Below, in pieces: positions 1 to 612 of a DNA stretch of 625 bases (positions are counted from its first letter, which is position 1; every line of letters begins with the position of its first letter). Below the pieces are notes generated by a model. It did not search any database, was not told where the DNA came from, and saw nothing but the letters and a program-made list of their open reading frames with translations. This DNA comes from Escherichia coli (GTDB taxonomy: Bacteria; Pseudomonadota; Gammaproteobacteria; Enterobacterales; Enterobacteriaceae), in NCBI RefSeq assembly GCF_003334255.1, contig NZ_QOWU01000207.1. The stretch is one strand, 5' to 3'. Position numbers and translations under genes: made by a program.

Positions 1-43
1 GTTTTCAGCCCCCATCATCTGTTGAGTTTCGGGAGCCGCGGTT

Positions 44-277
44 TTGACGTTTTGCGGGGACCTGCTCTTTGTTCCCTCCGGTATTCACCATCACCTGTTT
101 GAGAACCTTCGCCGCATGGGGCATCACTGCCACGGCCTGACGCACCTGTCCTGGGCAGAACGCAAAATTTTTTACCGGGTTTTGGGTAAAAAATTTTGTG
201 GGCTGTTCATTTACCCTGGACAGGTGCGGCAGGTTGTGGCTGTATCAGCCCCCGGCGACAGGGGCTTAAACAGGTGA
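44..277 (+). CDS. Hypothetical ORF (77 aa, His/Cys-rich), probably spurious
   Basis: From the ORF track. It has a TTG start at 44 with a possible SD-like GGGAG at 31-35 (8-nt spacer) and a TGA stop at 275-277. The product matches no family I recognise, and the ORF is spanned by the 88-bp compound palindrome at 141-228, which is atypical for genuine coding sequence. Confidence 0.12.
   Translation: MTFCGDLLFVPSGIHHHLFENLRRMGHHCHGLTHLSWAERKIFYRVLGKKFCGLFIYPGQVRQVVAVSAPGDRGLNR
141..228. repeat. Compound imperfect palindrome: outer 15-bp GC-rich inverted repeat (14/15 matches) enclosing the inner AT-rich palindrome
   Basis: Read directly: 141-155 CGCACCTGTCCTGGG pairs with 214-228 CCCTGGACAGGTGCG, with one mismatch at 152/217 (T/T). 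The outer symmetry axis is offset by 4 bp from the inner one, leaving asymmetric internal loops at 156-160 (5 nt) and 201-213 (13 nt). The element can form an 88-nt extended hairpin or cruciform on either strand. Confidence 0.75.
163..198. repeat. Perfect 14-bp inverted repeat with 8-bp spacer: CAAAATTTTTTACC - GGGTTTTG - GGTAAAAAATTTTG
   Basis: Read directly: arm 163-176 is the exact reverse complement of arm 185-198, and all 14 pairs (163/198 through 176/185) are Watson-Crick. Spacer 177-184 is asymmetric. Each arm contains the self-complementary octamer AAAATTTT (164-171 and 190-197). Pair 161/200 (C-G) also matches, and 162/199 would be a G-U wobble in RNA. The arms are 11/14 A+T in an otherwise GC-moderate context. 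Confidence 0.9.
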
Positions 278-456
278 ATGGCACCGGACACAACAACGGG
301 CAGGGACCCGCCGCAACGACGTGAAGCGCGGTTTGCGAAACGGCGTTGCGCCTTACATCCCGGCGTCTTTTTGCCGGGATGCCTGGAGCGCAGGCCACGG
401 CGCGACAGAGGCGGCGCGACCGGAACGGTCGCTGCAAGCCCGGGGTTTTCACGCAT
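211..456 (-). CDS. Hypothetical ORF (81 aa, Arg-rich), probably spurious; the reading frame stays open upstream to 612
   Basis: From the ORF track, with ATG at 456-454. By my reading the same minus frame is open from 612 down to 211 but has no ATG, GTG or TTG upstream of 456. It overlaps ORFs in the other frames. No recognisable domain. Confidence 0.12.
   Translation of the reverse strand: MRENPGLAATVPVAPPLSRRGLRSRHPGKKTPGCKAQRRFANRASRRCGGSLPVVVSGAIHLFKPLSPGADTATTCRTCPG
247..266. repeat. Short stem-loop: 6-bp stem AGCCCC / GGGGCT with 8-nt loop
   Basis: Read directly: 247-252 pairs with 261-266; loop is 253-260. A stem this short has weak significance in GC-rich sequence. Confidence 0.4.
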
Positions 457-600
457 CGGACCGTAGCGACAGCCCGAAACCGCGCCAGCGGGTTCGGCGG
501 AGACTGGCGGGTGCGCCAGCAGCTGCCTGTCGGAGTCGGGCCTGACGACCGGATGCCGCCAGGCAGCCGGGAGCCGAAGGTGCGCCCGGCAGACAGGACA
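301..600. other. GC-rich block (about 71% GC by hand count) with several short stem-loops and no clear codon-position GC periodicity; candidate structured non-coding region
   Basis: Hand counts of GC by position modulo 3: 66/70/70% over 301-450 and 76/64/78% over 451-600, which is weak or absent periodicity. Stems seen: 312-318/344-350 (7 bp), 356-364/373-381 (9 bp), 416-422/426-432 (7 bp, loop GAA), 504-509/514-519 (6 bp, loop GGTG), 566-571/585-590 (6 bp). All three plus-strand frames and two minus-strand frames are open across 320-450, as expected for GC-rich non-coding DNA. GC falls to about 48% after position 600. Confidence 0.35.
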
Positions 601-612
601 ACACTGCAGTAG
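346..612 (+). CDS. Hypothetical ORF (88 aa, Arg-rich), probably spurious
   Basis: From the ORF track. It has a TTG start at 346 and a TAG stop at 610-612, with the frame open from 325. The product is Arg/Pro/Gly-rich, typical of out-of-frame reading of GC-rich DNA. Codon-position GC bias is only weak over 451-600 and absent over 301-450. Confidence 0.12.
   Translation: MRLTSRRLFAGMPGAQATARQRRRDRNGRCKPGVFTHRTVATARNRASGFGGDWRVRQQLPVGVGPDDRMPPGSREPKVRPADRTTLQ
356..381. repeat. 9-bp perfect inverted repeat / stem-loop with 8-nt T-rich loop (CATCCCGGC - GTCTTTTT - GCCGGGATG)
   Basis: Read directly: 356-364 pairs with 373-381 in 9 Watson-Crick pairs, 6 of them G-C. The loop 365-372 contains T5. 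No U-tract follows the stem on either strand, so it is not a canonical intrinsic terminator. Confidence 0.7.

What the first reader, a model, noticed from the sequence alone, without database searches (positions are those of the whole stretch)
207..612. Mutually overlapping ORFs in up to five frames, most likely annotation artefacts
Three plus-strand and two minus-strand ORFs of 62-88 aa overlap within 207-612, all Arg/Pro/Gly/Ala-rich. At most one can be real, and weak codon-position bias suggests none is. The caveat is that the minus-strand frame open over 211-612, and the plus frame 325-612 on the same triplet register, show slight periodicity in 451-600 (GC 76/64/78% by position).
Basis: seen in the sequence. 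Interest (0 to 1): 0.15.

Follow-up and report, generated by a model that had tools for sequence, protein, structure and literature searches.

The report
Spurious ORFs over folded plasmid DNA
The five overlapping ORFs are not genes: they lie over one arm of a known hairpin promoter that works on single-stranded plasmid DNA during conjugation, and over a neighbouring 185-base folded DNA element that is highly conserved and that I could not find described in the searchable literature.

Summary
The five ORFs, their Arg/Pro/Gly/Ala bias and the 76/64/78% GC by position are all there, but none exceeds what 67% GC gives by chance.

None of the ORFs is coding. They match no protein family. Database homologues are only "hypothetical" enterobacterial plasmid calls of erratic length. 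In homologous DNA the translations change frame or disappear.

The window is one 640-bp repeat unit of the IncF leading region, just upstream of ssb. Its + strand is the transferred strand.
- **Positions 26-343** are the Frpo2/ssp1b class-1 single-stranded-DNA promoter hairpin. The finding covers its 3' arm (207-343).
- **Positions 406-590** are a separate multi-helix element. It stays 92-100% identical beside hairpins that are only 72-89% identical, and occurs in more than 5000 plasmids of Escherichia, Klebsiella, Salmonella, Enterobacter, Citrobacter and Kosakonia.

Evidence that the element is structured and strand-specific:
- 38 of its 50 base pairs show compensatory changes.
- G·T versus A·C counts, and folding energies, favour folding of the transferred strand.
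- It sits directly 3' of a class-1 hairpin in 113 of 122 copies.
- It is absent from Rfam and from the papers I could search.

I think it most likely acts in cis on the incoming single strand, as a barrier or insulator protecting the adjacent hairpin promoter. That mechanism is inferred, not shown.

The parts
26..343 (+). Class-1 single-stranded-DNA promoter hairpin (Frpo2 / ssp1b type), just upstream of plasmid ssb. Left arm 26-176, apex loop 177-184, right arm 185-343. The conserved paired core is about 36-331.
   Evidence: Folding the window as ssDNA gives -188 kcal/mol, z = -11.5. It is 94% identical to F Frpo2 and 90% to F Frpo1. It matches F ssiD D90178 as listed by Samuel et al.. RNAalifold on 12 homologues gives 79 pairs, 11 of them compensatory. 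ssb lies directly to the left on the minus strand.
207..343 (+). The part of the finding that is the 3' (non-template-like) arm of the hairpin. It holds the conserved CTGGAC (216-221), the GGTTGTGGCTGT block (232-243), and an unpaired ATCAG bubble (244-248) opposite 110-114. Published models place the -35 and -10 mimic in this stem.
   Evidence: Conserved columns and the internal loop are. The construct of Samuel et al. that conferred acrIIA4 protection ends at about window 264. The exact -35/-10 assignment is inferred; the consensus scan finds no canonical site.
356..381 (+). Hairpin H1 (356-364 pairs with 373-381), between the promoter hairpin and the core element.
   Evidence: Centroid fold. 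Compensatory variants are visible: ATCCCGGC/GCCGGGAT (window), RTGCCGGC/GCCGGCAY (Salmonella, Klebsiella), GCCCCGGC/GCCGGGGC (Kosakonia).
406..590 (+). Conserved structured core element ('tail core'): hairpin H2 followed by a P1/P2-closed junction that carries H3, H4 and H5.
   Evidence: Covariance model R1 scores it at 156.5 bits, E about 1e-41, on the + strand only. It is 92-100% identical next to hairpins of 72-89% identity.
411..439 (+). Helix H2 (411-422 with 426-439), followed by the conserved GCAAGC.
   Evidence: One search gives the mapping. 10 of 11 pairs have double changes, e.g. GCGACCG/CGGTCGC against GCATCCG/CGGATGC. The loop GAA is inverted to TTC in L003.
452..584 (+). Long-range helices P1 (452-457 CGCATC with 579-584 GGTGCG) and P2 (458-463 with 537-542), which close the multi-helix junction.
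   Evidence: The pair at A7 columns 69/208 is GC 35, CG 26, AU 20. The pair at 67/209 is GC 51, CG 33. The pair at 74/162 is GC 51, AU 38. The T·G in P1 is present in 88 of 89 sequences.
474..497 (+). Helix H3 (474-482 with 489-497): an invariant CCCGAAACC...GGGTTCGG stem with a variable apex.
502..531 (+). Helix H4 (502-511 with 522-531). Its sequence is replaced almost completely between lineages while the pairing is kept.
   Evidence: 8 of 9 pairs show double changes, e.g. CTGGCG.../...CGCCAG against CTTACCGCG/CGCGGTTAG.
549..570 (+). Helix H5 (549-557 with 562-570), with a purine-purine mismatch that is usually kept. It is followed by the invariant GGGAGCCGAAGG (568-579).
   Evidence: 6 of 8 pairs show double changes.
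207..612 (.). Spurious ORFs: + 278-466, + 321-545, + 346-612, - 207-452, - 211-456 (frame open to 612) and - 449-604 (extended to 697 in RefSeq as WP_071606928.1).

Best explanation
None of the overlapping ORFs is a gene. The window is one copy of a roughly 640-bp repeat unit in the leading region of an IncF conjugative plasmid. It lies directly upstream of ssb, and its + strand is the strand transferred into the recipient.

Positions 26-343 fold on that strand into the long imperfect hairpin known as Frpo2/ssp1b, a class-1 ssDNA promoter. Host RNA polymerase uses this hairpin to transcribe ssb, psiB and their neighbours before the complementary strand is made. The finding's left third (207-343) is the hairpin's 3' arm.

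The GC-rich remainder is a second, separate non-coding module. It consists of a small hairpin (356-381) and a 185-nt multi-helix element (406-590). Its helices are kept by compensatory substitutions across enterobacterial F-like and I-like plasmids, and its junction sequences are invariant.

I propose that this element also folds in the incoming single strand and acts in cis on it. Most likely it is a structured barrier or insulator on the 3' (polymerase-entry) side of the hairpin. It would hold up complementary-strand synthesis, or read-through transcription, arriving from upstream, so that the hairpin promoter stays folded and active for longer.

Shown here: the ORFs are non-coding; the hairpin is Frpo-type; the element is real, conserved, widely distributed, structured, and linked in position and orientation to such hairpins. 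Inferred: that it folds as DNA rather than RNA (about 0.7) and that it works as a barrier (about 0.3).
For: - **Origin and orientation.** The window is 100% identical to pEC958 and many IncF plasmids. It occurs 2-3 times per plasmid and is present in 3831 of 5426 complete E. coli genomes. All leading genes lie on the minus strand, and oriT lies to the left. The + strand equals the ssi-active strand of F ssiD.
- **Hairpin.** The literature shows Frpo1 and Frpo2 drive early leading-gene expression from ssDNA (PMC9849209; PMC12672017).
- **Not coding.** Close relatives carry 1-nt indels.
- **Conservation of the element.** 449-580 is 93-100% identical where the neighbouring hairpin is 72-89% identical. 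A diverged Salmonella tail finds at least 5000 PLSDB plasmids: Klebsiella 3278, Escherichia 509, Salmonella 479, Enterobacter 342, Citrobacter 164 and others.
- **Structure.** RNAalifold predicts 46 pairs, 22 compensatory. On the model-based alignment of 93 distinct sequences, 95.4% of cells pair against 82.4% in shuffles, and 38 of 50 pairs have double changes against 21.6 +/- 1.6 (0 of 500 shuffles reach either). Slid controls pair 27-47%. The trend is the same on a MAFFT-only alignment.
- **Strand.** G·T 174 against A·C 16 in the pairs. P1 has a near-invariant T·G. The unconstrained + strand MFE is lower than that of the - strand in 82 of 84 sequences with DNA parameters, by 4.6 kcal/mol on average. 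The model hits only the + strand.
- **Linkage.** 113 of 122 copies have a class-1 hairpin homologue directly 5'. Several of the rest have another large hairpin.
- **Precedent for a barrier.** In F, the ssp2 hairpin stalls complementary-strand synthesis at the edge of its stem and so prolongs expression from the ssDNA promoters (bioRxiv 10.64898/2026.01.09.698686).
Against: - No experiment addresses the element, so the barrier role is an analogy.
- Invariant unpaired blocks (GCAAGC, CATCRGAC, GGTTCGGCGGAG, CGGAGT, CGACGAC, GGAGCCGAAGG) suggest sequence-specific recognition. A passive roadblock would not need that.
- The element is dispensable for promoter activity as such. F itself has only a shorter 'type B' tail. 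The construct of Samuel et al. that conferred acrIIA4 protection lacks it. Some class-1-like hairpins have no tail, for example L006 4855-4997.
- Watson-Crick covariation is the same on both strands, so the strand call rests on wobble pairs and energies. The structure was derived on the + strand, which biases the wobble count. With RNA parameters the MFE asymmetry is weak (58 of 84).
- Many of the sequences are closely related.
Confidence: 0.55

Rival explanations
1. The element works as RNA on the minus strand. It would be part of the leading-operon transcripts, for example a 3'-UTR stabiliser, a processing site or a terminator for the upstream operon, or a leader for read-through into ssb.
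For: All leading genes are transcribed in the minus sense, so this RNA must exist whenever the upstream operon reads through. The minus-strand RNA of 344-625 folds well (-140 kcal/mol, z = -3.5). Watson-Crick covariation fits either strand. RNAalifold on the minus strand still recovers H2, H3, H5 and P2.
Against: On the minus strand P1 would carry an A·C in 88 of 89 sequences, and RNAalifold does not predict it there. Wobble pairs favour the + strand 174 to 16. The consensus fold is less stable on the minus strand in 83-84 of 84 sequences. No U-tract terminator follows the element. The distance to the upstream stop codon varies from 14 to 214 nt.
Confidence: 0.15
2. The element is a priming signal on the transferred strand: a single-strand initiation sequence of the primase (G4) or PriA (phiX174) type, or a site where a transcript is handed to DNA polymerase. 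It would start complementary-strand synthesis rather than block it.
For: The fold is strand-specific, multi-hairpin and GC-rich, with invariant unpaired blocks, and it lies on the strand that enters as ssDNA. From my own knowledge, G4-type and phiX-type ssi signals are such SSB-resistant multi-hairpin structures. Frpo itself was first isolated as an ssi, F ssiD. Conversion of the T-strand is thought to be primed repeatedly.
Against: Priming here would replicate straight through the adjacent hairpin and switch it off. No CTG start triplet is conserved at a fixed place. The leading-region fragment of F listed as an ssi in the table I read (ssiD) ends before the tail, and ssiE is unrelated in sequence. 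I had no reference ssi sequences to compare with.
Confidence: 0.15
3. The conservation is not functional. The segment would be a selfish or recombination-homogenised repeat (gene conversion between the 2-3 copies per plasmid and between plasmids), or a remnant of a mobile element.
For: Copies within one plasmid are 99-100% identical. Similarity ends sharply at about 385, 448 and 580. Alternative 'type A' and 'type B' tails are exchanged like cassettes. Mobile elements insert at its edges.
Against: Homogenisation cannot produce the pattern seen between lineages, in which stems change on both sides while pairing is kept (38 of 50 pairs) and junction bases stay invariant across genera. There are no terminal inverted repeats or target duplications. 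The position and orientation relative to the hairpins are fixed.
Confidence: 0.07
4. One of the ORFs, most plausibly a minus-strand one co-oriented with the leading genes such as 449-697 (WP_071606928.1), encodes a real small protein.
For: RefSeq annotates it, and the protein databases hold hundreds of similar 'hypothetical' entries named YdaA or YchA. The minus frame is open for 134 codons.
Against: No family hit. The lengths and coverage of the 'homologues' are erratic, and all come from the same DNA. The translations break frame in L005, L006 and L131 and are absent in Klebsiella and Kosakonia although the DNA is conserved. F plasmid copies end at 448. Codon-position bias is not significant.
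Confidence: 0.02
5. The element is a plus-strand RNA, antisense to the leading operons. It could be made from the double-stranded plasmid using the -35/-10-like sequences of the hairpin's right arm, which point rightwards.
For: The + strand is the strand that folds. The promoter-like sequences of the right arm face the element.
Against: Frpo is described as inactive in double-stranded form (stated). No sigma-70-like promoter or terminator is found in the window on either strand. There is no Rfam family.
Confidence: 0.05

Closest known systems
Frpo / ssi class-1 single-stranded-DNA promoters (F Frpo1 = ssiD, F Frpo2 = ssp1b, ColIb-P9 ssi1-3)
   Same: Window 26-343 is a member. It is 90-94% identical to the F copies, sits in the same place upstream of ssb, forms the same long imperfect hairpin on the transferred strand, and has the same AT-rich apex and conserved CTGGAC motif.
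   Different: The published elements are about 330-350 nt (F ssiD 351 nt, ColIb-P9 ssi1-3 326-331 nt) and stop at about window 353 (F ssiD) or 409 (ColIb-P9). The 406-590 element lies outside them and has no hairpin-promoter architecture.
ssp2 (class-2 ssDNA promoter of F) acting as a roadblock to complementary-strand synthesis (Fraikin et al., bioRxiv 2026)
   Same: It is a folded T-strand structure in the leading region that delays ss-to-ds conversion and so lengthens expression from ssDNA promoters. This is the working model I borrow for the element.
   Different: In ssp2 the barrier is the promoter hairpin itself. Here it would be a separate, promoter-less, multi-helix module with invariant junction sequences. 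No stalling has been measured at it.
Single-strand origins (sso) of rolling-circle plasmids, and G4- or phiX174-type ssi priming signals (from my own knowledge)
   Same: They are non-coding, strand- and orientation-specific, 100-300 nt multi-hairpin ssDNA structures with conserved loop motifs, and they act only on the single-stranded intermediate.
   Different: Those initiate complementary-strand synthesis. I found no sequence similarity and no conserved start motif that I could test. The position just upstream of a promoter that must stay single-stranded argues against a priming role.
REP/BIME-type intergenic GC-rich palindromes and the CUP repeats of the IncN pKM101 leading region (from my own knowledge)
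   Same: They are repeated GC-rich intergenic modules between operons. CUP repeats likewise precede leading-region genes several times per plasmid.
   Different: REP elements are simple palindromes found all over the chromosome. This element is a 185-nt junction fold confined to plasmid leading regions. CUP elements carry conventional promoters and repressor sites. I did not compare sequences with either.

Membership tests
Class-1 ssDNA promoter (Frpo/ssi) | Sequence homology to F ssiD/Frpo1, F Frpo2 or ColIb-P9 ssi1-3 | tested here: met
   Window -199..447 is 94.2% identical to F Frpo2, and 1-448 is 90.5% identical to F Frpo1. It matches the ssiD sequence in Samuel et al., Suppl. 4.
Class-1 ssDNA promoter (Frpo/ssi) | Long imperfect hairpin formed by one strand, conserved through compensatory change | tested here: met
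   -188 kcal/mol, z = -11.5. 79 consensus pairs, 11 compensatory, with conserved G·T pairs on the + strand.
Class-1 ssDNA promoter (Frpo/ssi) | Lies on the transferred strand upstream of leading genes that use that strand as template | tested here: met
   ssb, psiB and psiA lie on the minus strand to the left. traM, oriT and the SLT gene lie further left.
Class-1 ssDNA promoter (Frpo/ssi) | -35/-10 mimic in the stem and an AT-rich UP-like apex | tested here: inconclusive
   The AT-rich apex (165-198), the conserved TGGACA (217-222) and an unpaired ATCAG bubble (244-248) are present. However, the spacing varies by 3 nt between copies and the consensus scan finds no canonical site.
Class-1 ssDNA promoter (Frpo/ssi) | Transcription initiates on ssDNA and not on dsDNA | not testable with these tools
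   Known for F Frpo1 and Frpo2 from the literature. Not measured for this copy.
Protein-coding gene (any of the five ORFs) | Reading frame and translation conserved in homologous DNA | tested here: not met
   tblastn matches hop frames or are absent. 1-nt indels occur in L005, L006 and L131. F copies end at 448.
Protein-coding gene (any of the five ORFs) | Membership of a protein family, or homologues outside this DNA | tested here: not met
   NCBIfam 0 hits and PHROGs 0 hits for the ORFs in 207-612. For the one frame searched against the large protein database (minus 214-612), the 285 hits are all hypothetical enterobacterial plasmid ORFs of 74-220 aa. Pfam was not run.
Protein-coding gene (any of the five ORFs) | Codon-position compositional periodicity | tested here: not met
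   76/64/78% GC, chi-square p = 0.24.
Known RNA family (Rfam 15) | Match to a curated covariance model | tested here: not met
   The window gives only sub-threshold miRNA look-alikes on the hairpin. Klebsiella copies give nothing over the element.
Structured cis-element conserved by selection on pairing | Compensatory base changes above shuffled and slid controls | tested here: met
   0 of 500 shuffles reach the observed value on all five measures. 94-95% of cells pair, against 26-47% when partners are slid.
ssDNA roadblock of the ssp2 type | Nascent complementary strand stalls at the structure, and conversion downstream is delayed | not testable with these tools
   Needs 3'-end capture and parS/ParB timing, as.
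Priming signal (G4-type or phiX174-type ssi) | Supports primer synthesis on SSB-coated ssDNA; conserved start site | not tested
   No reference sequences were available. No CTG is conserved at a fixed position in the alignments.
Intrinsic transcription terminator | GC-rich stem followed directly by a T/U run | tested here: not met
   The scan finds one weak site, at 312-299 (-) inside the hairpin, and none in 344-625.

The most novel reading that the evidence does not exclude
The 406-590 element is a functional folded single-stranded DNA: a conserved multi-helix junction with invariant recognition surfaces, working only while the plasmid is single-stranded in a new host. It would be read by a host or plasmid protein (polymerase, helicase such as UvrD, primosome, SSB partner or an early leading-region protein) to time complementary-strand synthesis and early gene expression. 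That would make it a new class of ssDNA cis-regulator, shared by most F-like and many I-like resistance plasmids of Enterobacterales.
Probability: 0.35. Interest if true: 0.75.

Novelty: new variant of a known kind. Interest (0 to 1): 0.55.

Why it matters
The ORFs themselves are ordinary artefacts, and several are propagated in RefSeq. They include "frameshifted SSB" pseudogenes laid over a hairpin. Flagging them would clean up the annotation of thousands of plasmids.

The more useful result is what lies under them. Next to the ssDNA promoters that drive the first minutes of plasmid establishment there is a second conserved element, supported by covariation. It is present in 3880 of 5426 complete E. 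coli genomes and in more than 5000 PLSDB plasmids, many from clinical isolates. None of the recent studies of leading regions that I could read mentions it.

If it controls how long the leading region stays single-stranded, or how neighbouring ssDNA promoters are insulated from each other, it is part of the mechanism by which resistance plasmids get past restriction, CRISPR and SOS in new hosts. It is directly testable with reporters that already exist (parS/ParB conversion timing, sfGFP fusions, 3'-end capture).

Tried and rejected
- **Genome-contig scan.** The 16-mer CGGCGGAGACTGGCGG was too short for 298 Gb.
- **Phage collection.** No DNA match, so it does not explain the phrog_31045 hit.
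- **Low-identity 'proteins'.** I fetched their contigs to get diverged DNA. They come from assemblies full of split genes, so I did not use them.
- **L130.** It turned out to be the same backbone as L003. L132 is riddled with frameshifts and was left out of the alignments.
- **Exact -35/-10 hexamers.** I tried to fix them on the right arm. The spacing differs by 3 nt between copies and no canonical site is found, so I leave them as inferred.
- **ParB-like leading protein YfjB/HerB.** I considered that it might load on the element. The paper reports no defined site and does not examine plasmid sites. No evidence either way, so I dropped it.
- **Mobile-element remnant.** I considered a group II intron or IS remnant. 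Rfam finds intron domains only in the inserted intron, not in the element, and there are no terminal repeats.
- **Literature.** Four searches found nothing on a conserved module 3' of Frpo. The older subscription papers (Masai and Arai 1997, Bates 1999, Nasim 2004, Manwaring 1999) could not be read, so an earlier description cannot be excluded.
Full report
**Observation.** The minus frame of 211-456 is open as far as 612. The translations are 48-57% Arg/Pro/Gly/Ala, and GC by triplet position in 451-600 is exactly 76/64/78%. None of this exceeds chance. The positional bias gives chi-square p = 0.24, and shuffling 201-625 gives 3.3 +/- 1.2 ORFs of at least 60 aa against 5 observed, with 73 of 500 shuffles reaching 5. 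The region is 67.5% GC, so stop codons are rare in every frame.

**Where the window comes from.** It is 100% identical to many IncF plasmids, for example pEC958. It occurs a median of 3 times per genome in 3831 of 5426 complete E. coli genomes, almost always on plasmids.
- In these plasmids it lies between a methyltransferase gene and ssb. All leading-region genes (ssb, a ParB-like gene, psiB, psiA, hok) are on the window's minus strand.
- traM, oriT and the SLT gene lie further to the left.
- The + strand is therefore the transferred (T) strand and the template of the leading genes. It is also the strand of the ssi-active F ssiD sequence.
- Within one plasmid the unit 1-638 recurs at 99.4% identity upstream of another operon, and 13-449 recurs at 90% upstream of a third. 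The window is essentially one repeat unit.

**The hairpin.**
- As single-stranded DNA the window folds at -188 kcal/mol (z = -11.5). The fold is dominated by one long imperfect hairpin, 26-343, with an AT-rich apex at 177-184.
- The hairpin is 94% identical to F Frpo2 and 90% identical to F Frpo1/ssiD.
- Frpo1 and Frpo2 (also called ssp1a and ssp1b, class 1) are ssDNA promoters. The hairpin mimics a duplex promoter and drives ssb, yfjA, yfjB, psiB and psiA before the complementary strand is made (PMC9849209; PMC11541004; PMC12672017; bioRxiv 2026.01.09.698686).
- Twelve homologues share 79 consensus pairs, 11 of them with compensatory changes, and have conserved G·T pairs on the + strand.
- The finding's left part, 207-343, is the 3' arm of this hairpin. 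It contains the conserved CTGGAC motif and an unpaired ATCAG bubble. I could not fix the -35 and -10 hexamers exactly.

**The ORFs are not genes.**
- There are no NCBIfam or PHROG hits for any ORF in 207-612.
- A search of 5.8 billion proteins with the longest open frame returns 285 entries. All are hypothetical proteins from Escherichia or Salmonella plasmids (some named YdaA or YchA), 74-220 aa long, covering 30-99% of the query. That is the signature of gene callers picking different frames on the same DNA.
- In tblastn against 18 homologous loci, every ORF's matches jump between frames even in near relatives (L005, L006, L131). They disappear in Klebsiella and Kosakonia, although the same DNA scores 120-200 bits with a structure model.
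- L006 has three separate 1-nt deletions in the most conserved stretch.
- Both F plasmid copies end at 448.
- RefSeq nevertheless annotates a "frameshifted SSB" pseudogene at 5-210 (-), a pseudogene at 278-452 (+), and hypothetical proteins at 449-697 (-) and 619-849 (-).

**A second conserved module.** The GC-rich remainder is not filler.
- In plasmids whose hairpin is only 72-89% identical to the window's, or only partly alignable, the stretch 449-580 is 93-100% identical, with sharp borders near 385 and 580.
- Variants fall into classes: full length, 385-579/603 (I-type plasmids and some F-like ones), and 344-448 followed by a different "type B" tail, as in F itself.
- The table of Frpo-like sequences in Samuel et al. 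showed diverged versions of the same tail beside Salmonella and insect-metagenome candidates.
- A 121-nt Salmonella tail then found at least 5000 PLSDB plasmids at 78-90% identity: Klebsiella 3278, Escherichia 509, Salmonella 479, Enterobacter 342, Citrobacter 164, plus Raoultella, Serratia, Edwardsiella, Kosakonia and others.
- In annotated leading regions of Salmonella, Klebsiella, Kosakonia, Enterobacter and Citrobacter plasmids, the element follows the class-1-like hairpins I could locate there, always on the T-strand side.

**Structure.**
- A MAFFT alignment of 19 copies shows invariant blocks separated by segments that differ in sequence but stay self-complementary. RNAalifold predicts 46 pairs, 22 with compensatory double changes.
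- In window coordinates the helices are:
  - H2: 411-422 with 426-439
  - P1: 452-457 with 579-584
  - P2: 458-463 with 537-542
  - H3: 474-482 with 489-497
  - H4: 502-511 with 522-531
  - H5: 549-557 with 562-570
  - a further hairpin, H1: 356-364 with 373-381
- I built a covariance model from 26 diverse sequences, including 11 from a metagenome scan. It hits window 406-590 at 156.5 bits and nothing on the opposite strand.
- On 119 matches (93 distinct), 95.4% of pair cells are standard pairs against 82.4% in shuffles. 38 of 50 pairs have changes on both sides, against 21.6 +/- 1.6. The covariation score is 0.315 against 0.105. No shuffle in 500 reaches any observed value. Sliding the partners by 1-3 columns drops pairing to 27-47%.
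- That alignment is fitted to the model, so I repeated the count on the MAFFT-only alignment, with the same outcome: 94.3% against 82.7%, 25 against 17.1 pairs, 0 of 500.
- P1 is informative. One of its pairs is G-C, C-G or A-U in 35, 26 and 20 sequences, and the window differs from its close relative L006 by four substitutions that are all compensatory.

**Which strand folds.** Watson-Crick covariation cannot tell.
- *Wobble pairs.* On the + strand the pairs include 174 G·T cells and 16 A·C cells. Even without the near-invariant T·G of P1 (88 cells) and one doubtful H4 pair (36), recurrent G·T positions outnumber recurrent A·C positions 7 to 2.
- *Minus-strand prediction.* RNAalifold on the minus strand does not recover P1. 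It replaces it with an invariant 4-5 bp helix that has no covariation support.
- *Folding energy.* Without any constraint, the + strand folds more stably than the minus strand in 82 of 84 sequences with DNA parameters (mean difference 4.6 kcal/mol). With RNA parameters this holds in only 58 of 84.
- *Context.* The neighbouring hairpin is known to fold on this same strand as DNA.
- I conclude, at about 0.7, that the element folds in the transferred single strand.

**Linkage and context.**
- Of 122 copies with enough upstream sequence, 113 have a recognisable class-1 hairpin directly 5'. Of the other nine, several have a different large hairpin, and one has an IS inserted at the junction.
- The element is not obligatory. 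F carries a shorter type B tail (36-43 bits). One I-type hairpin has none. The Frpo2 fragment that Samuel et al. used for their acrIIA4 protection experiment stops at about window 264.
- Structure-seeking mobile elements land at its edges. A group II intron sits in + sense one base 3' of P1, at window 585. An IS110-family element sits at about 354.

**Mechanism.** Complementary-strand synthesis and transcription both read the T-strand from the window's right to its left. Any polymerase coming from the upstream operon therefore meets the element just before it reaches the hairpin.
- In F, the ssp2 hairpin has been shown to stall complementary-strand synthesis at the edge of its stem. Removing it halves PsiB production from Frpo2.
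- By analogy I propose that the element is a folded barrier or insulator that keeps the adjacent hairpin single-stranded and folded for longer.
- The invariant unpaired blocks suggest that a protein reads it, which a passive barrier would not need. I therefore give this specific role only about 0.3.
- I keep several alternatives open: a priming signal, a minus-strand RNA element, a plus-strand RNA, and non-functional homogenisation. The last is hard to square with compensatory change.

**Comparison with what is known.**
- The hairpin is a member of the known class-1 ssDNA promoters.
- The element is outside the published ssi fragments of about 330-350 nt, which end at about window 353 or 409.
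- It has no Rfam family.
- It is not mentioned in the recent leading-region papers I could read or found by four literature searches.
- I rate it a new variant of a known kind: cis-acting folded-ssDNA elements of plasmid leading regions.

**Dead ends.**
- One genome-collection scan was wasted on a pattern that was too short.
- There were no phage matches.
- The contigs behind the low-identity "proteins" were poor assemblies.
- Exact promoter hexamers could not be assigned.

Noticed in passing
window 44-277 (+): The ORF running through the promoter hairpin matches phrog_31045 (unknown function) at E = 1.4e-47. No record in the phage DNA collection matches the window. This 'protein family' is probably built from translated Frpo-type hairpins.
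   Followed up: partly
window 5-210 (-); also L002 609-814: RefSeq/PGAP annotates a 'single-stranded DNA-binding protein, frameshifted' pseudogene over the left arm of the hairpin at each repeat copy. It looks like an annotation artefact spread by protein-similarity evidence.
   Followed up: partly
L003 20243-22584 (insertion point = window 585); same in L130: A group II intron (Rfam D1-D4-7 plus domain V/VI; ltrA on the + strand; starts GTGCGAC) is inserted one base 3' of closing helix P1 of the element, in the sense of the transferred strand. The site suggests targeting of a stem-loop in single-stranded DNA.
   Followed up: partly
L133, between about 4557 and 5712 (insertion point = window ~354); metagenome locus L146; a further IS110-family gene at L134 21024-22028: An IS110-family element sits exactly between the base of the promoter hairpin and hairpin H1 in an E. 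coli plasmid. The same junction sequence appears in a metagenome contig, suggesting a preferred target here.
   Followed up: partly
L003 11233-11340 and 16709-16815 (= window 423-425): The loop of helix H2 reads TTC instead of GAA while the stem is unchanged. This is a loop inversion of the kind produced by template switching within an extruded hairpin.
   Followed up: no
L004 10106-10216 (-) and 15494-15605 (-); L139 9043-9191, 12030-12174, 16998-17140: F plasmid Frpo1 and Frpo2, and a Raoultella plasmid, carry a shorter 'type B' tail. It keeps H2 and then has different hairpins (GCCCGnnGGGC, GGAGACAGC..GCTGGCTCC) that also covary between F and Raoultella. It may be a reduced relative of the element.
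   Followed up: partly
L002 6600-6700 (window 600-700); L004 about 9990-10060: Directly after the element come microsatellite-like, purine-rich runs on the T-strand: (CAGTAG)n in the window's plasmid and (GAAGAG)n in F. They are unexplained.
   Followed up: no
Alignment A6 columns 40-48 (window 440-451): Most non-E. coli copies have a conserved GTTGACC (a -35-like hexamer) in the linker between H2 and P1. The window type has GGGGTTTTCACG instead.
   Followed up: no
window 491-496 and 573-578: The invariant TTCGGC in the 3' strand of H3 is also complementary to the invariant GCCGAA near the 3' end of the element. H3 and this pairing are therefore mutually exclusive, which could be a conformational switch. 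Both segments are invariant, so covariation cannot test it.
   Followed up: no
L135 10745-10844 (+): A sub-threshold Rfam match (39.6 bits; gathering score 79) to AS-pc01, an antisense RNA described from plasmid pHK01, lies between two small leading-region genes of a Klebsiella plasmid.
   Followed up: no
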